A DNA stretch of 64,000 nucleotides, from IMG/VR virus record IMGVR_UViG_3300025000_000056; one strand, 5' to 3'. This stretch comes from a virus. Taxonomy: Duplodnaviria; Heunggongvirae; Uroviricota; Caudoviricetes. A program made the position numbers and the translations under genes. Below are positions 8,396-24,178 of the stretch, in pieces (positions within the stretch are counted from its first letter, which is position 1; the number at the start of each line of letters is the position of its first letter). Below the pieces are notes generated by a model. The model saw only the letters and a program-made list of their open reading frames with translations, searched no databases and was not told the DNA's origin.

Positions 8396-8464
8396 TAGCC
8401 ATTAGCTCAGTGAATAGAGTCCCGTTAATAACGGTGATGCGTGAGTTTGATCCTCACATGGCTA
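8396..8464 (+). ncRNA. 69-nt tRNA-like element: perfect 7-bp acceptor, D-arm and T-arm, but anticodon arm replaced by a 5-bp stem with 3-nt loop (TLE family)
   Basis: Acceptor tagccat/atggcta; D-arm gctc-agtgaata-gagt; anticodon arm ccgtt-aat-aacgg; T-arm gtgag-tttgatc-ctcac. Lies in the ORF-poor stretch 8173-8567, inside two weak tracked ORFs. Confidence 0.5.
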
Positions 8465-17952: not shown

Positions 17953-17977
17953 CTTAAATAACTTAGGAGGTGGATTT

Positions 17978-18379
17978 GTGTTAATCGAACGTATTGTTGA
18001 TAACAAACGTTTCAAAGTTGAAATTGACTTTAAAGAAATTAAGAGTCATATTGCTGAGGCTGCTGAAGAGTACAGCGATCATCCTGGAGGTGATATAGAA
18101 TTACCATTAGCTAATTATCACCCTCAGTGTGCAGAAGCTCTAGCTATTATCAACGCTATCGAAGAGAATAATGATTTAGCCATCGAGCTGATTATAAACA
18201 CTGCCAAGAAAAAGAACGGCTGGTTCCGTAAGGGCGCTGTCTATTATCATCGAACATATGGTGATTTATCGTATGAATCACAGGATGAATACGGTTCTCG
18301 TACGTATGCCTTTCGTTGTAAGGCTCATGATGATGATCTCATAGAACTTACATTCGAGACTTATGTTGAAAAATGGTAA
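17978..18379 (+). CDS. hypothetical protein (133 aa)
   Basis: GTG start 7 nt after AGGAGG. The tracked ORF from 17909 only translates the preceding hairpin. Confidence 0.5.
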   Translation: MLIERIVDNKRFKVEIDFKEIKSHIAEAAEEYSDHPGGDIELPLANYHPQCAEALAIINAIEENNDLAIELIINTAKKKNGWFRKGAVYYHRTYGDLSYESQDEYGSRTYAFRCKAHDDDLIELTFETYVEKW

Positions 18380-18591
18380 ATGAGAAATGTCCAAATGAAT
18401 GCTCTTCTTTTACCCAAGCGACACTAAATAACATCACGATCCTTATCGATAGTAAAGTATTTCATCCAACGGGATGGAGTTGCTTACGATGTGGTCATTT
18501 TATAGCAACTTCTCCTAGAGAGGTCTATCCAGTGCCAATTATTAAACCTAAGAGGTTATCATGGTTTGCTAGATTGTTTAGACGATCTTAG
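18373..18591 (+). CDS. hypothetical small protein (CPNEC..CLRCGH)
   Basis: ORF track; weak RBS. Confidence 0.3.
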   Translation: MVNEKCPNECSSFTQATLNNITILIDSKVFHPTGWSCLRCGHFIATSPREVYPVPIIKPKRLSWFARLFRRS

Positions 18592-18704
18592 TGATGATAT
18601 CCTCACTAAATAGAATATCAGAGCCATTACCCTTTATGGTTTAAGGAGTCATTACCCCACTCCTTATCTGGTATTCTCCTTAGTGAGGAAACTCACTGAA
18701 TTAT

Positions 18705-19161
18705 GGGCCCGAGTTAGTTTCGACAGGGTGAATAGAGTATGTCCTCTGAGATGACAGTCGGAAAGACGACATTAAAGCAAATGCTACACCTATGAAAAAC
18801 GCTGCCTAATTTTAATTAATTAGGAACTACAGCCCTAAAACGGAGAGTACCCAACGACTCCTGAAGGTCGAAGACTGGGTAGTTAATAGTGGCGAAGTTG
18901 GCATACGCACGCTTGAAATAAAGCGAGGTCAAAGAATTAACTATGGCTGCATGCAAATGTGGAAGACGAAAGTCCCGTGCGGGTTCGAGTCCCGTCTATT
19001 AACGCATGTTTCCTGCATCGTATAATGCAGGTGGTGGAGGCGAGGGTTTAATAAGCGCTGGTTGCAATTCCAGTAGGTTAGACACTCAGATTTCTCAGTA
19101 GTAACAGGGACAAAGGGTAGACATTCTGGACACGGGGGGCGGCTCCCCGTCGGGTCCGCCA
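18705..19161 (+). ncRNA. ssrA: tmRNA-like gene (ssrA-like)
   Basis: 5' end gggcccgagttagtTTCGACAGGG matches the tmRNA tRNA-like domain consensus. Internal tag frame gca aat gct aca cct atg aaa aac GCT GCC TAA (ANATPMKNAA-stop) matches the Bacillus-type GCTGCCTAA tag end. 3' end cgggtcc-g-CCA is complementary to 5' gggcccg over 7 bp. Confidence 0.55.
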
Positions 19162-19170
19162 GCTAATTTT

Positions 19171-19363
19171 GCGGATATAGCTCAATGGTAGAGCGGCTAT
19201 CGAGAGATAGCGGTTAATTACGGAGTTATATAAACCATGTTGATCACATGAATAAAGTAATTCTTTGGAGATTAACTGTATAAGTGAGGAGTATGTGATT
19301 AGTCCGGACGAAAGCATATAAGTAGCTTATATACGGTTGGGGGTTCGAGCCCTTCTATCCGCT
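19171..19363 (+). ncRNA. tRNA-like element (TLE family, GAGA tetraloop arm) interrupted by a 123-nt insertion flanked by a 5-bp direct repeat CGGTT
   Basis: 5' part gcggata-ta-gctc-aatggta-gagc-g-gctatc-gaga-gatagc-ggtt (19171-19215). 3' part ggggg-ttcgagc-ccttc-tatccgc (19339-19362), with a perfect 7-bp acceptor. Joined pieces give 69 nt. CGGTT occurs at 19211-15 and 19334-38. Confidence 0.5.
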
Positions 19364-19379
19364 ACAATATTATTCTCAT

Positions 19380-19460
19380 GCGGGGTATAGTTTAGTGGTT
19401 TAAAACGAGCGAAGGAAGTTTATGATCGCTATCAGGGGTTCGAATCCCTTTGCCCTGCCC
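19380..19460 (+). tRNA. tRNA-like gene with encoded CCA and an expanded 13-nt anticodon loop AGGAAGTTTATGA
   Basis: Acceptor gcggggt/gccctgc (with G-U pairs); D-arm gttt-agtggttt-aaac; stem agcga/tcgct closed by a 13-nt loop; T-arm agggg-ttcgaat-ccctt; CCA at 19458-60. Confidence 0.45.
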
Positions 19461-19667
19461 AATCATCTGGAAGGTCTTGGTGACAGAGAAATATGTTAGA
19501 TGCGTCAGACATCAGTATTAAACTCTTGCAGTTCAATTCTGCACTTCCGCGATCATTTGTTAGTTTTGATTATATAGGTACTCTGTAGCCTGTAGTAATT
19601 GCAGGACAATGAGCTAAGTTGAGCTTAAATAACTCAAGCCTATATGATCTTAATTTGCTTACATAGC

Positions 19668-19695
19668 GTCTCTTCGAGGCGTTTTGTATATAGCC
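19668..19695 (+). terminator. imperfect hairpin GCGTCTC-TTCG-AGGCG followed by TTTTG
   Basis: Shares the TTACATAGCGTCTCT sequence with the hairpin at 20782. Confidence 0.4.
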
Positions 19696-19747
19696 TGATG
19701 GCTTATTAAATATTATCTAGTTGTAAAGAATATGAGGAGGAAAAGAA

Positions 19748-20767
19748 ATGAAAATCGTAACCGAAAACAACACGAAGAAGGAAATCTTATCTGCTTATTC
19801 CGAGGCCTTGGAATTGTTAAAAGCTAGTGAAGGTATCATAGTTGATCCAGCCAAAGAAATGTCCATGAAAAAAGCCGGAGAGACTTTGACTAAAGCCACT
19901 GAAACTGTTGGTCTTAATGTTGAAGACCAAATTGCAAAATTGCAGAAGAGTGTCGCCAGCATACTTGGTAATTTAGCGAATAGTTTTACGGAAGAAATTA
20001 AAACATTCAATGATTTACAAGAAGCAATCGCCCTCAAAGAATCCGAACTGAAAGAGCTGTTTGACATTGAAAAAGAAGCGTTCGCCTTAACTGCGTTGGT
20101 CAATGCAAATAGGGAAACCAAAGATAAGTTTAAGGCTGCTTTCGATGAAGACAAAGCAAGAATGCAGGCTGAACTTGATCAATTAAAAGCTGATTTGAAG
20201 GCTGAAAAAGCTGCTCATTTGAATGAAACCTATCTGCAAGACGAAGAAGTTAAACGGAAACGTGCCAGGGATCAAGAAGAATACACGTACGACTTCGCAA
20301 GGAAGAAGCAACTTGACGATAACGATTGGGAAGATGAGAAAAAGGTACGTGAAAAACAGTTATCGGAACTTGAAAGTGAAGTCAAAACAAGACTTGAACT
20401 GGTAACAACAAGGGAAGAAACGATTGACGACCTTAAGGCTAAAGTGGAAGAAATTCCGCAATTAGTTGACGCTGCCAGAAAAGCTGGAGAAGCTGAAGGC
20501 GAAAAGAAAGCTGGAACAAGTTTCGGATTTGAAAAGAGAGCAATCGAATCCAAGACAACTTCTGAAAAGACGATACTTGAAAATAAGGTTGCCATGCTAG
20601 AGGCTCAGCTCAATAAAGCGAATGACGAATTAACGAGACTAAATGAAGATTTGAAAACTGCATATAGCAAAATTCAGGAAACCGCTACGGCAGCTATCGA
20701 ATCTCAAGCCAATTCGCGAATGGTTAATAGTCTTGAGGCCTTAGTGAAAGATAAAACTCAGAAGTAA
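19748..20767 (+). CDS. coiled-coil protein (339 aa), embedded in the RNA-gene cluster
   Basis: GAGGAGG RBS; Lys/Glu-rich heptad-like composition throughout. Confidence 0.55.
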   Translation: MKIVTENNTKKEILSAYSEALELLKASEGIIVDPAKEMSMKKAGETLTKATETVGLNVEDQIAKLQKSVASILGNLANSFTEEIKTFNDLQEAIALKESELKELFDIEKEAFALTALVNANRETKDKFKAAFDEDKARMQAELDQLKADLKAEKAAHLNETYLQDEEVKRKRARDQEEYTYDFARKKQLDDNDWEDEKKVREKQLSELESEVKTRLELVTTREETIDDLKAKVEEIPQLVDAARKAGEAEGEKKAGTSFGFEKRAIESKTTSEKTILENKVAMLEAQLNKANDELTRLNEDLKTAYSKIQETATAAIESQANSRMVNSLEALVKDKTQK

Positions 20768-20781
20768 AGATTTAATCGTTA

Positions 20782-20815
20782 CATAGCGTCTCTCAAGAGA
20801 GACGCTATGTAAATT
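20782..20815 (+). terminator. perfect hairpin ACATAGCGTCTCT-CAAGA-GAGACGCTATGT
   Basis: 13-bp inverted repeat immediately after the stop codon. Confidence 0.5.
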
Positions 20816-20833
20816 ATTTCAACGTATTACATG

Positions 20834-20907
20834 ATTCTATTGGTGTACGGACGCACGCCCTGCTACCAGGCAGTGAAGGGCGAGTTCGATTCTCGCAACA
20901 GAATCCA
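20834..20907 (+). tRNA. tRNA-like gene with encoded CCA; anticodon arm not canonical by eye
   Basis: Acceptor ttctatt/aacagaa (6 of 7 bp); D-stem gtgt/gcac; T-arm gcgag-ttcgatt-ctcgc; CCA at 20905-07. Confidence 0.4.
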
Positions 20908-20911
20908 TCAT

Positions 20912-20985
20912 GGCCGGATAGTGTAAGGAAGCACGCGCTACTCTTCATAGCGAAGGGAGAGTTCAATTCTCTCAGACGGCTGCCA
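20912..20985 (+). tRNA. tRNA-Lys(CUU)-like with encoded CCA
   Basis: D-arm gtgt-aaggaa-gcac; anticodon arm cgcta-CTCTTCA-tagcg; T-arm gagag-ttcaatt-ctctc; acceptor only partly paired (ggccgga / agacggc). Confidence 0.5.
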
Positions 20986-21113
20986 TTGTTATCTTTAGTT
21001 AAGATTTATCTTAACTATTAATTTTAGATGGAAAGCCCCTAAAATAGACGTAGAGATAAGTGGCGAAGGGGACGGGAGCGATATGATATGGTGAGTCGTT
21101 CCAAGCAATTATC

Positions 21114-21233
21114 ACCGAGGTACCCAAGTGGTTAGGGAGCGTATCCGGCGCGCCTCTCCGCTGTAAAGAGATGTAATCTTCTATGGGGAGCGGTAAACGT
21201 AATAGGCGGGTTCAAATCCCGTCCTCGGTGCCA
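21114..21233 (+). tRNA. 120-nt tRNA-like gene (type-II-like 3-bp D-stem) with about 40-50 extra nucleotides; encoded CCA
   Basis: Acceptor accgagg/cctcggt (perfect 7 bp); D-arm ccc-aagtggtta-ggg; T-arm gcggg-ttcaaat-cccgt; CCA at 21231-33; internal palindrome GGCGCGCC. Confidence 0.45.
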
Positions 21234-21258
21234 TATTAATTAAGAGGAGGAAGGATTT

Positions 21259-21501
21259 ATGAGAAACACGTCGGGTGCTAATTGTATTGAAGAAGCAGAG
21301 GTTCAGTTTGTCGAAGTCAATGTTCCAGTTCTTGCTCAGGTGATCTACTCTGGTAATAGAACCGTCGTCATTTTGCCAGACGGCTCTAAGGGGATTGCCA
21401 AATGTTGTTTTGAAGATGTCTTCAATAAAAAGATAGGTCACGAGTTAGCTCTTGGAAGAGCTATTGCAACTAGGGACGGCAAAAGGTATCATAAAGCTTA
21501 A
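21259..21501 (+). CDS. hypothetical protein (80 aa) between tRNA-like genes
   Basis: ORF track; GAGGAGG RBS. Confidence 0.45.
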   Translation: MRNTSGANCIEEAEVQFVEVNVPVLAQVIYSGNRTVVILPDGSKGIAKCCFEDVFNKKIGHELALGRAIATRDGKRYHKA

Positions 21502-21516
21502 ACTTATTATTCTCAT

Positions 21517-21677
21517 GGCGAGGTGGCCGAGCGGTTGAAGGCGCTAGTCAAGGGATACGATAGTTAAAGGTCTAGACGGAGGAAGTTTATGATCGTCAAA
21601 ACTATTTCCCAGCAACCGGTACTGAGCTCTAAACTATCTACGAGTGATGTTCGAAAGTTCGAATCTTTCCCTTGCCG
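21517..21677 (+). tRNA. 161-nt tRNA-like gene: Ser/Leu/Tyr-type 5' half and canonical T-arm/acceptor separated by about 75 extra nucleotides
   Basis: Acceptor ggcgagg/ccttgcc (7 bp with one G-U); D-arm gcc-gagcggttgaa-ggc; T-arm gaaag-ttcgaat-ctttc; internal hairpin gacgg-AGGAAGTTTATGA-tcgtc. Confidence 0.45.
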
Positions 21678-21701
21678 ACGTAATTAAAGGAGATGATTTT
21701 A

Positions 21702-21866
21702 TTGATCGTTAAATGCGATATCGTTAAGTGTGATTTTAATTACAGTGGCTTCTGTCGTGCTAACGTTCTTGAAATTGTACCTAATCATATACTTATGCCT
21801 GGTGACCCAGGTTATTTTGAGTACATTACGTGTTCAACGTATGTAAAGTTGGAACATCATGATTAA
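21702..21866 (+). CDS. small Cys-containing protein (54 aa)
   Basis: TTG start 10 nt after AAGGAG; below the ORF-track size cutoff. Confidence 0.35.
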   Translation: MIVKCDIVKCDFNYSGFCRANVLEIVPNHILMPGDPGYFEYITCSTYVKLEHHD

Positions 21867-22008
21867 AGACGAGCAAGCTGAAGCCGAAATATTTCCTGAA
21901 TTTGTGAGAGAACTCATAGGCGATTATCCTAGTGTCTATGATATGAAGAAGGGTCGCTTTCTTAGTAAAGAGGAAGTAATCCGAAAAATGAATAGAGAGG
22001 AGGAATAA
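21859..22008 (+). CDS. small hypothetical protein (49 aa)
   Basis: ATG overlaps the upstream stop; below the ORF-track size cutoff. Confidence 0.3.
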   Translation: MIKDEQAEAEIFPEFVRELIGDYPSVYDMKKGRFLSKEEVIRKMNREEE

Positions 22009-22010
22009 AC

Positions 22011-22265
22011 ATGGATCGTAATCTAATGGCTGAACTTGATGATATTATCAATAAGGGAGTAGCAATTGCCGAAGTAAACCGGCAAACTATGAGTACTATT
22101 AAAGAGTTTCAAAATGCGCTCATGGAATTCTCTAAGGAAAACGACATTCCTAAATTAGTTGCTGAAATTATGGAAAAACATCCAGAAAAACGCCCGGAAC
22201 TACAAAAGATTGTTCTGGCGTTTCATTGCGAAGGAAAACGCGTTGAAGATTCACTAATTCGTTAA
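22011..22265 (+). CDS. hypothetical protein
   Basis: ORF track; GAGGAGG RBS. Confidence 0.5.
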   Translation: MDRNLMAELDDIINKGVAIAEVNRQTMSTIKEFQNALMEFSKENDIPKLVAEIMEKHPEKRPELQKIVLAFHCEGKRVEDSLIR

Positions 22266-22273
22266 TTAACATG

Positions 22274-22440
22274 GTGATCGTATTTCAATCGGTAGAAGCT
22301 GTCTTGCAGAAAGCTGATAGTCAGGAGGAACGTGATAGGATCGCTACCTAACATGGCTTGACATGACGGTTGTGAAAGCAATACGTACTTTAAGAAGACC
22401 TGTGGCAGAGTTGCGAGTTCAATTCTCGTCGATCACCCCA
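22274..22440 (+). tRNA. 167-nt tRNA-like gene with encoded CCA and about 90 extra internal nucleotides
   Basis: Acceptor gtgatcg/cgatcac (perfect 7 bp); D-arm tttc-aatcggta-gaag; T-arm gcgag-ttcaatt-ctcgt; CCA at 22438-40; insert contains aggaggaacgtgataggatcgcta, related to the 13-nt loop motif. Confidence 0.45.
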
Positions 22441-22462
22441 ATTAAATCCAAGGAGGTTATCA

Positions 22463-22762
22463 ATGATTACAGCCGGTATAATTATTAACATCATACTACT
22501 GATCATAACTATTGTTGCAGGCATTTGGATGATGGTGGAAGATGCTTTAAATCCTGATAACATTCTTGATTTATTCAAGAATGTTATTAAGGTCAAGCAT
22601 CTTCTATTCTTATTAGTTCCAGGTGTCTTAATCGGTATTTTCTTACTCAAAGCTGGTATTACATTCGTCTTAAGCTTTGAACAAGATGACGATGATGATG
22701 AGCCAGATTCAGTTTGGAATAAACCTATATCACTTCGTAAGAGATACGTAGACGAGGAGTGA
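22463..22762 (+). CDS. membrane protein with acidic tail
   Basis: ORF track; AAGGAGG RBS; hydrophobic N-terminal two-thirds. Confidence 0.5.
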   Translation: MITAGIIINIILLIITIVAGIWMMVEDALNPDNILDLFKNVIKVKHLLFLLVPGVLIGIFLLKAGITFVLSFEQDDDDDEPDSVWNKPISLRKRYVDEE

Positions 22763-22986
22763 TTTGTATGATGCGAAATCTACTTAAGATCTTTGCTAAA
22801 AATACACTTAAGGCAACGATACTTTATTGTCCTTTTTGTGCGAGTCCTAAAACAAAATATCACGGACTAGTACAAAAAGACGGTAAGAATAGTAAAACTG
22901 ATAATTATTCAATTACTTGTCTTGCCTGTGGAGCCTCTGGTAATGTTCAAGAAGTTTGGCTTAAAGCGCCAGAAAAAGCTCTATAA
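22759..22986 (+). CDS. zinc-ribbon protein (CPFC...CLAC)
   Basis: ORF track. Confidence 0.45.
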   Translation: MICMMRNLLKIFAKNTLKATILYCPFCASPKTKYHGLVQKDGKNSKTDNYSITCLACGASGNVQEVWLKAPEKAL

Positions 22987-23127
22987 TAACTACATGAGGG
23001 TTGGCAGGTGCCAGGATACGTTAGGTCTACGCAGTTCAAGTCTGCCGAGAGCGGGGAAGTTTATGCCGTTTGGTTAACCTTGATGGTTCGATACCATCAA
23101 ACCCTCACTATATTCAAGGAGGCTGTT

Positions 23128-23430
23128 ATGGCAAAGATATTAGTCATCGAAGACTCTAAAGCTTATCGACGTCGTTGTTATAAACAGCCAGAGATATCTC
23201 ATGAGCCTAATTTAGATCATCAACATCGTATTGCTGAGATTAATAGGAGCCTTAAGTTTATTCGGTGGACTCGGTGGAGTGTATTATTATTCTTATTTCT
23301 CGGCAGTTTATTAGGTTGTACTATTAACTATGGCGATATTAAGATGATTCCATATATCGCTATGCTCCTTATTGCTGGAATTGCATGTTACTTTTTTAAC
23401 GAAGAGGAGAAAAAGAATGAACCTAATTAA
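23128..23430 (+). CDS. small membrane protein
   Basis: ATG after AAGGAGG; tracked ORF start 23008 is unlikely. Confidence 0.4.
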   Translation: MAKILVIEDSKAYRRRCYKQPEISHEPNLDHQHRIAEINRSLKFIRWTRWSVLLFLFLGSLLGCTINYGDIKMIPYIAMLLIAGIACYFFNEEEKKNEPN

Positions 23431-24178
23431 ATCAGAACAATTTGGTGCTATAAGTTGTGATTTATATCAAGATAGTAAAGGGGAATATTTCATAACTCGT
23501 AAGCAAATCGGTGAAGCCTTAGAGTATGCCAATCCACAAAAGGCTATCGATAAAATTCATAGCCGTAATAAGACTCGACTTGATGCTTTTTCAGCTACCG
23601 TCATATTGACGGCAACTGATGGGAAGACTTATAAGACGAATCTTTATTCGGCAAAAGGTGTTTATGAAATTTGTCGTTTCAGTCATCAGCCAAAAGCTAA
23701 TGAGTTTTATGACTGGGTTTATGACTTGCTAGAAAACTTAAGAACAGGCAAGGCTCAGATTAGCTTCACGATGCCTCAAACGAAGATCGAATTGATCGAA
23801 GCCTGGTTAGCTTCTGAAAAGAAGAACGTCGTACTAGAGCAAGAAAAACTAGCTTTAGAGCAAACTAATTTAGTATTGCTTCCAAAGGCTAAATCGTTTG
23901 ATACCTTTATGAACGCCGAAGGCAATCAATCAATGAAGAAAGTTGCCAAAAGCTTAGGTATTGGTCGTAATAAACTCTTTGAATTCTTACGTGAAGAAAA
24001 GATTCTTATGAGTGATAATACGCCTTATCAGGAGTATATGGATCGAGATTACTTTGTTGTTGAACAGCGACCATGCGGCCCTGAAGACAAACAGTTCTTC
24101 AAAGCCGTAACGTATGTATCCAATAAGGGTATTATTTTTATCGAGAGATTGCTTAAGAAAAAGGGGATGATAGCCTGA
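23417..24178 (+). CDS. phage antirepressor (BRO-N / KilA-C type)
   Basis: ATG after GAGGAG. N-terminal Bro-N-like region (..FITRKQIGEALEY..) and C-terminal antirepressor-like region. Confidence 0.6.
   Translation: MNLIKSEQFGAISCDLYQDSKGEYFITRKQIGEALEYANPQKAIDKIHSRNKTRLDAFSATVILTATDGKTYKTNLYSAKGVYEICRFSHQPKANEFYDWVYDLLENLRTGKAQISFTMPQTKIELIEAWLASEKKNVVLEQEKLALEQTNLVLLPKAKSFDTFMNAEGNQSMKKVAKSLGIGRNKLFEFLREEKILMSDNTPYQEYMDRDYFVVEQRPCGPEDKQFFKAVTYVSNKGIIFIERLLKKKGMIA

What the first reader, a model, noticed from the sequence alone, without database searches (positions are those of the whole stretch)
19408..19430. Recurrent hairpin with conserved 13-nt loop AGGAAGUUUAUGR on covarying stems
Three copies occur: cacaag-AGGAAGTTTATGT-cttgtg (16543-16568), agcga-AGGAAGTTTATGA-tcgct (19408-19430, sitting as the anticodon loop of a tRNA-like gene), and gacgg-AGGAAGTTTATGA-tcgtc (21576-21598, inside the 161-nt tRNA-like gene). 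The stems differ completely but stay complementary while the loop is conserved, which argues for a selected RNA structural element. The loop also reads as SD (AGGAAG) plus ATG, and two copies open short ORFs beginning MI(A/V) (25 and 33 codons) that run through the downstream T-arm and acceptor. It could be a protein-binding loop, a translation-coupled regulatory element, or an expanded anticodon loop. Degenerate relatives occur at 19283-19300 and 22325-22350.
Basis: seen in the sequence. Interest (0 to 1): 0.6.

Follow-up and report, generated by a model that had tools for sequence, protein, structure and literature searches.

The report
Start-site-like loop on phage tRNA-like RNAs
A groundwater jumbo phage carries four to five RNA hairpins with an identical 11-base loop that looks like a ribosome start site, three of them where the anticodon loop should be in tRNA-shaped RNAs that cannot decode; this arrangement matches no described RNA family, and its function is still a guess.

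Summary
The core GGAAGTTTATG occurs four times (16555, 19414, 21581, 23055). Each copy is the centre of an 11-13 nt loop closed by a different 5-6 bp stem. All five stem pairs covary and every cell is paired. A covariance model built from these four also finds a degenerate fifth copy at 17459-17484 (ATG replaced by ACG) and nothing else in about 82 kb of the phage.

Three copies cap the anticodon-arm position of tRNA-like cloverleafs: 19380-19461, 21517-21677 and 22996-23106. These lie in a cluster of at least 12 tRNA-like genes, almost none with a usable anticodon loop, next to a divergent tmRNA-like gene.

The loop is not a common gene start here.

No copy of the loop next to a tRNA T arm was found in IMG/VR, JGI metagenomes or GTDB genomes, and the phage has no close relatives.

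My best reading (confidence about 0.4) is a selected RNA module. It mimics a translation-initiation region, sits on stable tRNA-like scaffolds, and is recognised in trans by the 30S subunit or a start-site-binding protein. The function is inferred, not shown.

The parts
16548..16572 (+). Hairpin copy 1. Stem CACAAG/CTTGTG, loop AGGAAGTTTATGT; A1-T13 can add a seventh pair.
   Evidence: 32.7 bits; MFE -7.4 kcal/mol.
16506..16580 (+). Three-way junction that holds copy 1. The closing stem is TTAATTAT/ATAATTAA and a second arm spans 16515-16546. It has no T arm, so this context is not tRNA-like.
   Evidence: MFE fold. No Rfam hit.
17459..17484 (+). Degenerate copy 2. GGG/CCC (17462-64/17478-80) closes the loop AGGAAGCTTACGG, with two T-to-C changes including ATG to ACG. 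Outer TATA/TATA pairing needs a 1-nt bulge.
   Evidence: It was not in the seed alignment but is found by model R1 at 16.8 bits, E about 0.04.
17447..17455 (+). Extended -10 promoter-like box TGGTATAAT. It would start a transcript at about 17461-63, placing copy 2 at the 5' end of a roughly 400-nt structured non-coding region.
   Evidence: A 17-mer with 16 of 17 identity precedes the tRNA cluster of relative L044. Inference only.
19408..19430 (+). Hairpin copy 3, the finding itself. Stem AGCGA/TCGCT, loop AGGAAGTTTATGA.
   Evidence: 34.3 bits.
19380..19461 (+). tRNA-like gene t5. It has G-1 opposite C73 and an encoded CCA (a histidine-type acceptor end), normal D and T arms, and a 5-bp anticodon stem capped by the 13-nt loop.
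   Evidence: Rfam tRNA 40.4 bits. Acceptor and T-arm scan. ARAGORN finds it only with the intron option.
21575..21597 (+). Hairpin copy 4. Stem GACGG/TCGTC (one G-U pair), loop AGGAAGTTTATGA.
   Evidence: 34.2 bits.
21517..21677 (+). tRNA-like gene t10. Acceptor GGCGAGG/CCTTGCC, G73, a class-II type D arm and a T arm GAAAG-TTCGAAT-CTTTC. Copy 4 sits at the tip of a long arm (GGGA/TCCC, ATAGTT/AACTAT) in the anticodon position.
23049..23071 (+). Hairpin copy 5 (new). Stem GAGCG/CGTTT (two G-U pairs), loop GGGAAGTTTATGC; G1-C13 can add a pair.
   Evidence: 30.6 bits.
22996..23106 (+). tRNA-like element t12. Acceptor GAGGGTT/AACCCTC, an enlarged 5' arm, copy 5 in the anticodon-arm position, and a T arm GATGG-TTCGATA-CCATC (23082-23098). 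It ends 21 nt before the start of the next gene.

Best explanation
The element is a lineage-specific RNA hairpin module. An invariant 11-nt apical loop core, GGAAGUUUAUG, sits on stems of arbitrary sequence. The core reads as a Shine-Dalgarno-like purine run, a U-rich spacer and AUG, so it mimics a translation-initiation region (TIR).

In three cases the module replaces the anticodon loop of a tRNA-shaped RNA that keeps acceptor and T arms but cannot decode. I propose that the tRNA-like body acts as a carrier. It would give RNase P/RNase Z processing, CCA ends and nuclease resistance, much like the engineered 'tRNA scaffold'.

The loop would be the payload. A trans-acting factor that normally reads start sites would recognise it: either the 30S subunit with initiator tRNA, or a TIR-binding phage or host protein such as a translational repressor or an endoribonuclease. 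The RNAs would then act as decoys, sponges or operators for that factor.

Shown: the hairpins, their covariation, the loop invariance, their placement in tRNA-like scaffolds, and the lack of coding signal.

Inferred: expression, processing, the identity of the binding partner and the decoy role.
For: - Four copies share an identical 11-mer while all five stem pairs covary: 100% paired, 5 of 5 pairs with double changes, 0 of 500 shuffles reaching the score.
- A non-seed fifth copy is recovered in the same 6.6-kb RNA cluster and on the same strand. Nothing else exceeds 12.5 bits in the window, the +-10 kb flanks or a phage G locus.
- The G-U pairs (copies 4 and 5) would be C-A mismatches on the other strand (table), so the + strand RNA is the folding species.
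- Three different scaffolds carry the loop at the anticodon-arm position. Their acceptor and T stems are unrelated (CGGGGTA, GGCGAGG, GAGGGTT), so they are not recent duplicates.
- The stem under the loop is 5 bp in t5 and t12 but a long composite arm in t10. This argues for display on a carrier rather than fixed tRNA geometry.
- The surrounding cluster is systematically non-decoding. Anticodon-position loops have 4, 4, 6, 4, 13, 8, 7, 5, 13 and 13 nt, including GNRA tetraloops. Acceptor and T arms stay perfectly paired. My scan found 8 distinct loci on the + strand within 16.8-23.1 kb (21 raw hits window-wide), 0 on the - strand, and a mean of about 2 hits in shuffles.
- The spacer UUU and the non-optimal GGAAG are invariant, whereas real starts in this phage use AAGGAGG with variable 6-9 nt spacers. 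The whole loop therefore seems to be read, not just a Shine-Dalgarno sequence plus AUG.
- The next RNA downstream of copy 2 contains four more hairpins with a different conserved loop end, GUUGAAA. That is a sponge-like architecture in the same cluster.
- Precedent: tRNA folds placed in cis bind ribosomes and raise translation 2- to 6-fold (PMC9142559).
Against: - There is no cross-species conservation. The phage has no close relatives: its 1179-aa neighbour protein matches only itself in 5.8 billion proteins. The two contigs with a 54%-identical neighbour gene have canonical tRNAs and no R1 hit.
- No candidate binding protein was found among about 90 window proteins scanned against Pfam or PHROGs.
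- Each hairpin alone is only marginally stable (-4.3 to -7.4 kcal/mol) and not better than shuffles. MFE folds of t5 and t10 prefer alternative pairings.
- A closed 13-nt loop cannot span both the Shine-Dalgarno duplex site and the P site without melting the stem. This is a geometric argument from ribosome structure and is my inference.
- Copy 1 is not in a tRNA-like context.
- Expression is unproven.
Confidence: 0.4

Rival explanations
1. The loops are genuine translation starts. Ribosomes initiate at the loop AUG and translate short ORFs through the 3' half of the tRNA-like fold. This would couple translation to RNA processing or to the next gene.
For: - A Shine-Dalgarno-like run and AUG are exposed in a loop in four copies.
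- With the last stem bases, three copies read GAGG or GGAGG 6 nt before the start, close to the spacing at real genes.
- The 32-codon ORF from 21589 stops at 21685-87, 5 nt before the TTG start at 21693. That is a classic coupling distance.
Against: - The ORFs are 5, 25, 32 and 4 codons with unrelated products.
- Only one of them ends near another start.
- The fifth copy has ACG.
- In copies 3 and 5 the Shine-Dalgarno match is weak and about 4 nt too close to the start.
- The spacer is invariant, which a start site does not require.
- The source's gene caller called no gene at any of these sites.
Confidence: 0.17
2. The loop is a cleavage or processing signal for a sequence-specific endoribonuclease, by analogy with T4 RegB, which cuts GGAG in start sites. 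Cleavage would split or mature the tRNA-like RNAs.
For: - An invariant 11-nt single-stranded target is presented in a loop.
- Phage G, the nearest isolate, keeps an RNA ligase, a kinase and a 2'-phosphotransferase within 2-8 kb of the homologue of ORF 19748-20767.
Against: - No nuclease or RNA ligase was detected in the window.
- Removing 6 nt would leave UUUAUGA, with G37 after a UAU anticodon, which is atypical.
- The 'intron' positions ARAGORN proposes across the cluster are inconsistent: 30/31, 32/33, 34/35 and 36/37.
- There are no group I or other ribozyme hits.
Confidence: 0.13
3. The loops are an evolutionary relic without function. Start-site sequence was captured into decaying tRNA genes by recombination or gene conversion, and the whole cluster is pseudogenes.
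For: - The tRNA-like genes score low (at most 40 bits) against 60-67 bits for tRNAs of the relatives.
- GGAGGAAG is a common start-site string in this phage, for example at 2161, 21248 and 48738.
- Copies 3 and 4 share 18 of 19 nt.
Against: - Neutral decay would hit the loops as much as the stems. Copy 1 differs from the others at every stem position yet at none of the 11 core positions, and pairing is kept by double changes.
- Acceptor and T stems of 8 scaffolds are perfectly paired.
- No mechanism is known that would insert the same 11-13 nt into unrelated hairpin tips.
Confidence: 0.12
4. The loop is a decoding element: an expanded anticodon loop, for example a tRNA-His or tRNA-Ile derivative with anticodon AUG or UAU, that reads codons in an unusual way.
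For: - t5 and t11 have G-1:C73 plus CCA.
- The last 7 loop-plus-stem bases, UUAUGAU, differ by one base from the tRNA-His loop UUGUGAU (the tRNA-His loop sequence is from my own knowledge).
- ARAGORN with the intron option calls Ile(TAT).
Against: - A 13-nt loop lacks the U-turn geometry that decoding needs.
- The same loop sits on a class-II body with a very long arm (t10) and in a non-tRNA junction (copy 1).
- Position 13 takes all four bases across the copies.
Confidence: 0.04
5. The motif works at the DNA level, as a protein-binding site or as a hairpin in single-stranded DNA (promoter, primase or recombination signal).
For: The hairpins are inverted repeats and are clustered on one strand.
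Against: - G-T pairs replace Watson-Crick pairs in two copies.
- The stems carry no sequence conservation.
- The copies sit inside RNA genes at a fixed structural position.
- There is no enrichment of promoter or terminator signals at the sites.
Confidence: 0.04

Closest known systems
Non-canonical or pseudo-tRNAs and small stable RNAs in phage tRNA clusters (for example T4 species 1 and 2 RNAs; B. cereus tRNA-Other, PMC3399842)
   Same: They are tRNA-shaped RNAs encoded beside tRNA genes. They keep acceptor and T arms and do not work in decoding.
   Different: Here a specific 11-nt start-site-like sequence recurs in the anticodon position of three unrelated scaffolds and in two non-tRNA hairpins. 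I know of no such shared payload in those RNAs (own knowledge; not found in the literature searches).
tmRNA
   Same: One RNA combines a tRNA-like part and an mRNA-like part. A divergent tmRNA-like gene lies in the same cluster at about 18705-19162.
   Different: tmRNA has no anticodon arm, no Shine-Dalgarno sequence or AUG, a G3:U70 alanine identity and a conserved tag ORF. The hairpin carriers have an anticodon arm, a Shine-Dalgarno sequence plus AUG, and no conserved ORF.
yjdF riboswitch and cis-tRNA leaders (PMC9142559)
   Same: A tRNA-like fold in an mRNA binds ribosomes and boosts translation of the ORF behind it. Here t9-t12 end about 14-25 nt before gene starts, that is 2-12 nt before their strong Shine-Dalgarno sequences.
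   Different: In yjdF the start site lies outside the tRNA-like fold and the loop equivalent to the anticodon loop is variable and dispensable. Here the start-site-like sequence is the anticodon-position loop and is invariant.
CsrB/RsmZ-type sponge RNAs and CsrA sites
   Same: Hairpins display GGA-containing, Shine-Dalgarno-like loops on variable stems and titrate a protein that otherwise binds start sites.
   Different: CsrA loops are short (about 4-8 nt) with an A(N)GGA core and are packed into one RNA. Here a further 8 nt (AGUUUAUG) are invariant, the loop has 11-13 nt, and the hairpins sit in separate tRNA-like carriers.
Operators of phage translational repressors (T4 RegA; MS2 coat protein hairpin) and the STAB-SD stabiliser of Bacillus mRNAs
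   Same: An RNA element containing a start codon or a Shine-Dalgarno sequence is bound in trans, by a protein or by the 30S subunit, without producing a protein.
   Different: Those elements lie at real gene starts or in 5' UTRs. Here most lie inside tRNA-like genes with no gene attached. The resemblance of GUUUAUG to the RegA SELEX consensus is recalled from memory and is only a lead.
Engineered tRNA scaffold for recombinant RNA (Ponchon and Dardel)
   Same: The anticodon arm of a tRNA is replaced by a payload hairpin, while the tRNA body provides processing and stability.
   Different: That system is man-made. A natural counterpart has not been described to my knowledge.

Membership tests
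tRNA (Rfam RF00005) | Cloverleaf with a 7-bp acceptor stem, D arm and T arm, scoring above the gathering threshold | tested here: met
   t5 (19381-19458) scores 40.4 bits against a threshold of 29. t10 and t12 are not reported by Rfam, but they have perfect 7-bp acceptor stems stacked on 5-bp T stems with TTCGAAT or TTCGATA loops.
tRNA (Rfam RF00005) | A 7-nt anticodon loop with U33 and a purine at position 37, able to decode | tested here: not met
   The loop has 13 nt (the Rfam alignment shows *[13]*). ARAGORN's default run misses the gene.
tRNA with an intron (group I, or archaeal bulge-helix-bulge) | A recognisable intron fold or a bulge-helix-bulge motif at a consistent position that restores a canonical anticodon loop | tested here: not met
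   No intron or ribozyme family appears at E<=10. ARAGORN's 'introns' are 6-116 nt at positions 30/31 to 36/37, with mismatched stems.
tmRNA | A tRNA-like domain without an anticodon arm, G3:U70, and an internal tag ORF without Shine-Dalgarno sequence or AUG | tested here: not met
   The hairpin carriers have an anticodon arm and no G3:U70; t5 has G2-U71 instead. Their ORFs start with a Shine-Dalgarno sequence and AUG and are not conserved. A separate tmRNA-like gene does exist at 18705-19162.
Ordinary protein-gene start site | A Shine-Dalgarno sequence at normal spacing, a start codon, and a downstream ORF with coding signal | tested here: not met
   The ORFs are 4, 5, 25 and 32 codons and one copy has ACG. 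None of 87 predicted gene starts has the core. Real starts use AAGGAGG with 6-9 nt spacing.
CsrA-titrating sRNA hairpins | A(N)GGA in short hairpin loops, several per RNA, bound by CsrA | tested here: inconclusive
   GGA is present in all five loops. However, the loops have 11-13 nt with 8 further invariant bases, and there is one hairpin per RNA. The host and its CsrA are unknown.
YrlA / Y RNA | A permuted tRNA-like module whose ends lie in the Ro-binding stem | tested here: not met
   There is no YrlA hit in 16000-23500 at E<=10, and the carriers have their ends at the acceptor stem. Sub-threshold YrlA hits (31-36 bits, threshold 69) occur only in relatives L044 and L045.

The most novel reading that the evidence does not exclude
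This phage uses natural tRNA scaffolds to display a start-site mimic. The resulting stable, RNase P/Z-processed decoy RNAs would capture 30S subunits with initiator tRNA, or a start-site-binding regulator or nuclease. That would be a new class of phage non-coding RNA that manipulates translation initiation. It would work alongside a whole set of anticodon-less tRNA mimics and a phage tmRNA.
Probability: 0.2. Interest if true: 0.8.

Novelty: new variant of a known kind. Interest (0 to 1): 0.62.

Why it matters
Phage tRNA genes are usually read as codon-usage helpers or, more recently, as replacements for tRNAs cut by host defence nucleases. Here almost an entire tRNA cluster has kept the tRNA body and lost the anticodon, and three members carry the same start-site-like loop in its place.

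If the loop is bound by the ribosome or by a start-site-binding protein, tRNA shape would be serving as a delivery and stabilising vehicle for regulatory RNA. That would be a natural version of a tool that RNA engineers invented independently. It would also add a new way for phages to act on translation initiation.

The idea is directly testable with a few in vitro transcripts.

Tried and rejected
Searches for the motif elsewhere:
- Exact 16-mer scan of IMG/VR: 20 hits, all in coding sequence or at ordinary gene starts, none in a hairpin or tRNA context.
- Loop plus T-arm pattern in IMG/VR: 0 hits.
- The same pattern in JGI metagenomes: 1 hit inside a coding region with no tRNA.
- The same pattern in GTDB genomes: 15 hits without flanking stems.

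Searches for relatives:
- Neighbouring proteins in IMG/VR gave nothing useful.
- The 1179-aa neighbour matches only itself.
- blastn of the cluster against phages gave no usable hit.
- The 339-aa ORF has 54%-identical homologues on two short contigs with canonical tRNAs but no R1 hit.
- More distant homologues sit in Ter-type operons without tRNAs.
- Phage G has no R1 hit near gp268.

Other tests:
- An RNA target for the loop: the best duplexes are scattered in coding regions and none is in the RNA cluster.
- A binding or processing protein in the window: none recognisable.
- Intron models from ARAGORN are incoherent.
- Pseudoknot or kissing partners in each local context: nothing consistent by inspection.

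Full report
CONTEXT

The window is part of a 220-230 kb phage contig from a groundwater metagenome (ENA ERZ909597, k127_14936). All genes lie on the + strand and GC content is about 39%. The replication genes include a DNA polymerase III alpha subunit, RecJ, RecA, UvrD and an SNF2 helicase. A few proteins are distantly related to Bacillus phage G. Gene starts use strong AAGGAGG Shine-Dalgarno sequences 6-9 nt upstream, which fits a Firmicutes-type host (inference).

THE OBSERVATION

The 12-mer AGGAAGTTTATG occurs exactly three times, at 16554, 19413 and 21580, always on the + strand.

Checking the 1-2 mismatch matches for flanking stems revealed two more:
- A full fourth copy at 23049-23071: stem GAGCG/CGTTT around GGGAAGTTTATGC.
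- A degenerate one at 17459-17484: GGG/CCC around AGGAAGCTTACGG.

I aligned the four full copies. All 20 stem cells pair, and all five pairs show changes on both sides. None of 500 column shuffles reaches the observed covariation score, and sliding the partner columns collapses pairing to 25-55%.

A covariance model of this alignment (R1) was run without filters on both strands of the window. It returns the four seeds at 30.6-34.3 bits and the non-seed 17459-17484 hairpin at 16.8 bits (E about 0.04). Everything else stays at or below 12.2 bits. Nothing scores above 12.5 bits in the 10 kb on either side of the window or in a phage G locus.

The invariant part is the 11-mer GGAAGTTTATG. The two bases flanking it are variable and can pair in two copies, so the loop has 11-13 nt.

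An 11-mer present four times in 64 kb is not remarkable alone; 18 of 100 Markov simulations contain one. The signal comes from three things together: stems at all sites, clustering within 6.6 kb on one strand, and a common structural position.

Individually the hairpins are the minimum-energy fold of their 29-34 nt segments. They are weak, at -4.3 to -7.4 kcal/mol.

- The coordinates of copies 1 and 3 are slightly off.
- Position 13 is N, not R.
- Copies at 19408 and 21575 share 18 of 19 nt, so only their two outer pairs differ.
- The 'degenerate relatives' at 19283 and 22325 are not found by R1 and lie in stems or internal loops of other folds. However, 22325-22350 shares GATCGCTA with t5, and both genes have the same acceptor-end type, so those two genes look like paralogues.

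WHERE THE HAIRPINS SIT

The hairpin at 19408-19430 is the anticodon arm of an Rfam tRNA hit (19381-19458, 40.4 bits). The alignment shows a 13-nt insert where 7 nt are expected. The gene has an encoded CCA and a G at -1 opposite C73, the hallmark of bacterial tRNA-His acceptor ends (established knowledge; sequence).

The hairpin at 21575-21597 is the tip of a long composite arm in the anticodon position of a 161-nt class-II-like tRNA-like gene (21517-21677).

The new copy at 23049-23071 occupies the anticodon-arm position of a third tRNA-like element (22996-23106). That element has an acceptor stem, an enlarged 5' arm and a T arm with a TTCGATA loop.

The three scaffolds have unrelated acceptor and T stems, so they are not recent duplicates.

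Copy 1 (16548-16572) is one arm of a three-way junction without a T arm.

The degenerate copy follows an extended -10 box (TGGTATAAT, 17447-55). The other five + strand copies of this box type lie at most about 170 nt upstream of a predicted gene start. This hairpin would therefore form the 5' end of a roughly 400-nt structured non-coding RNA (inference).

THE CLUSTER

A simple scan looked for a T-loop, a 5-bp T stem and a perfectly paired 7-bp acceptor stem. It finds eight distinct loci between 16829 and 23106 on the + strand (21 raw hits window-wide), none on the - strand, and about two hits per shuffled window. Four further candidates have imperfect acceptor stems.

Almost none can decode. 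The anticodon-position loops are:
- GUAA, UGAC and GAGA tetraloops
- 5-, 6- and 8-nt loops
- the three 13-nt loops
- one 7-nt loop with a pyrimidine at position 37

ARAGORN's default run reports only three genes, two of them with 'impossible' anticodons. With the intron option it proposes introns of 6-116 nt at inconsistent positions and with mismatched stems. There are no intron or ribozyme families at E<=10. I therefore read these as non-decoding tRNA mimics, not as interrupted tRNAs.

The nearest relatives I could reach are two contigs whose homologue of ORF 19748-20767 is 54% identical. At the same place they carry canonical tRNAs of 60-67 bits, one odd tRNA-like gene, and sub-threshold YrlA-like RNAs. 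They have no R1 hit.

IS IT JUST A GENE START?

The evidence says no:
- None of 87 predicted gene starts carries the core.
- The AUGs open ORFs of 5, 25, 32 and 4 codons with unrelated products.
- The fifth copy has ACG instead of AUG.
- Real starts use AAGGAGG with variable spacers. Here the sub-optimal GGAAG and the UUU spacer are invariant.
- In two copies the best Shine-Dalgarno register is about 4 nt too close to the AUG.

Only the 21589 ORF ends at a coupling distance from the next gene. The sequence does look like this phage's start sites, since GGAGGAAG recurs at real starts. That is why I call it a start-site mimic.

MECHANISM

Shown: this is a hairpin under selection for pairing, with a loop under selection for sequence, placed on tRNA-like carriers.

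Inferred: the carriers provide processing and stability, and the loop is read in trans by something that recognises translation-initiation regions. Candidates are the 30S subunit with initiator tRNA, as for STAB-SD-type stabilisers or decoys, or a protein such as a translational repressor or a RegB-like nuclease.

Points in favour:
- The variable length of the supporting arm speaks for display on a carrier rather than for tRNA geometry.
- The adjacent RNA carries four hairpins with another conserved loop end, GUUGAAA, which suggests that sponge-like RNAs are a theme of this cluster.
- tRNA folds in cis are known to bind ribosomes and stimulate translation (PMC9142559).

Points against:
- I found no partner protein.
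- I found no complementary RNA target.
- I found no conservation outside this genome.
- A closed 13-nt loop cannot be threaded through the mRNA channel without opening the stem (inference).

I put 0.4 on this reading. The rest is spread over real mini-ORF initiation, a cleavage signal, a relic, decoding, and a DNA-level role.

COMPARISON AND NOVELTY

The element passes the tRNA test only for the body of one carrier and fails it for the anticodon loop. It fails the tests for tmRNA, intron-containing tRNA, YrlA and ordinary gene starts. The CsrA-sponge comparison is inconclusive.

It works most like a decoy or operator hairpin, and like the engineered tRNA scaffold. Literature searches did not turn up a described equivalent.

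I rate it a new variant of a known kind: phage tRNA-like non-coding RNAs carrying Shine-Dalgarno-mimic hairpins. It is real and unusual. It is known from a single phage lineage and its function is unproven.

Noticed in passing
window 18705-19162 (+): A divergent tmRNA-like gene.
- The 5' end reads GGGCCCG-AGUUAG-UUUCGACAGGG, the tmRNA 5' motif.
- The 3' end reads GGAC-ACGGGG-GGCGGCU-CCCCGU-CGGGUCC-G-CCA, with G3:U70 and a non-canonical T loop.
- A tag-like ORF ends in ...ATPMKNAA* at 18784-18810.
- A complete tRNA-like element (18882-19003) is embedded in its 3' half.
- The MFE fold pairs the two ends. ARAGORN finds it only at lowered thresholds, and Rfam tmRNA_permuted gives 21.8 bits, below threshold.
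   Followed up: partly
window 16829-23106 (+), plus 8396-8464: A cluster of at least 12 tRNA-like genes that keep paired acceptor and T arms but have anticodon-position loops of 3-13 nt, including GNRA tetraloops. Several also have 50-120 nt insertions. One more lies at 8396-8464, has a 3-nt loop, and sits inside a predicted 75-aa ORF. Only one gene (20912-20985, 'Lys CTT') has a 7-nt loop, and that has C at position 37.
   Followed up: partly
window 17590-17825 (+): A second hairpin family. Four hairpins have different stems (GGCGUU/AACGCC, GGCUAU/AUAGCC, GGUG/CACC, GCGGCG/CGCCGC) and 14-16 nt purine-rich loops that all end in GUUGAAA. They lie in a roughly 400-nt non-coding stretch that starts with hairpin copy 2 and ends at terminator-like hairpins (17837-56, 17909-50). 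The layout resembles a sponge RNA.
   Followed up: partly
window 16000-16480 (+): A C-poor, G-rich stretch of degenerate 21-31 nt repeats (GGTA / GTAG units, 9 copies of one 29-nt family). GC skew is 0.285, and the stretch lies directly upstream of the RNA cluster.
   Followed up: no
window 21114-21233, 21517-21677, 22274-22440, 22996-23106: Each long tRNA-like element ends about 14-25 nt before the start of a small ORF, that is 2-12 nt before its strong Shine-Dalgarno sequence (starts at 21259, 21693, 22463 and 23128). This is the layout in which cis-tRNA leaders were shown to raise translation (PMC9142559).
   Followed up: no
window 16795-16818 (+): An orphan start-stop site: AGGAGGU, 8 nt, then AUG UUU UAA, about 10 nt upstream of the first tRNA-like gene. 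There is no ORF behind it.
   Followed up: no
window 19659-19673 and 20779-20793: The 15-mer TTACATAGCGTCTCT is repeated exactly on both sides of ORF 19748-20767, each time as the 5' half of a terminator-like hairpin.
   Followed up: no
L044 3469-3581 and 4736-5489; L045 294-418 and 1581-2165: Two contigs carry a 54%-identical homologue of ORF 19748-20767.
- Upstream of that gene is a permuted tRNA-like RNA: T arm, 3' acceptor strand, CCA, loop, 5' acceptor strand, D arm. It gives sub-threshold YrlA hits of 31-36 bits.
- Downstream is an odd tRNA-like gene whose stems covary between the two contigs.
- Then comes a conserved non-coding region of about 400 nt.
- Canonical tRNAs follow.
- The box GTTGTTATAATTTATAT in L044 matches window 17445-17461 at 16 of 17 positions.
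   Followed up: partly
window 19748-20767; L039 (phage G 185030-210007); L046-L048: The 339-aa coiled-coil ORF belongs to phrog_29668. In phage G its homologue gp268 lies near an RNA ligase, a kinase, a 2'-phosphotransferase and an aaRS-like gene. In more distant phages it sits in TerD/TerC/vWA operons.
   Followed up: partly
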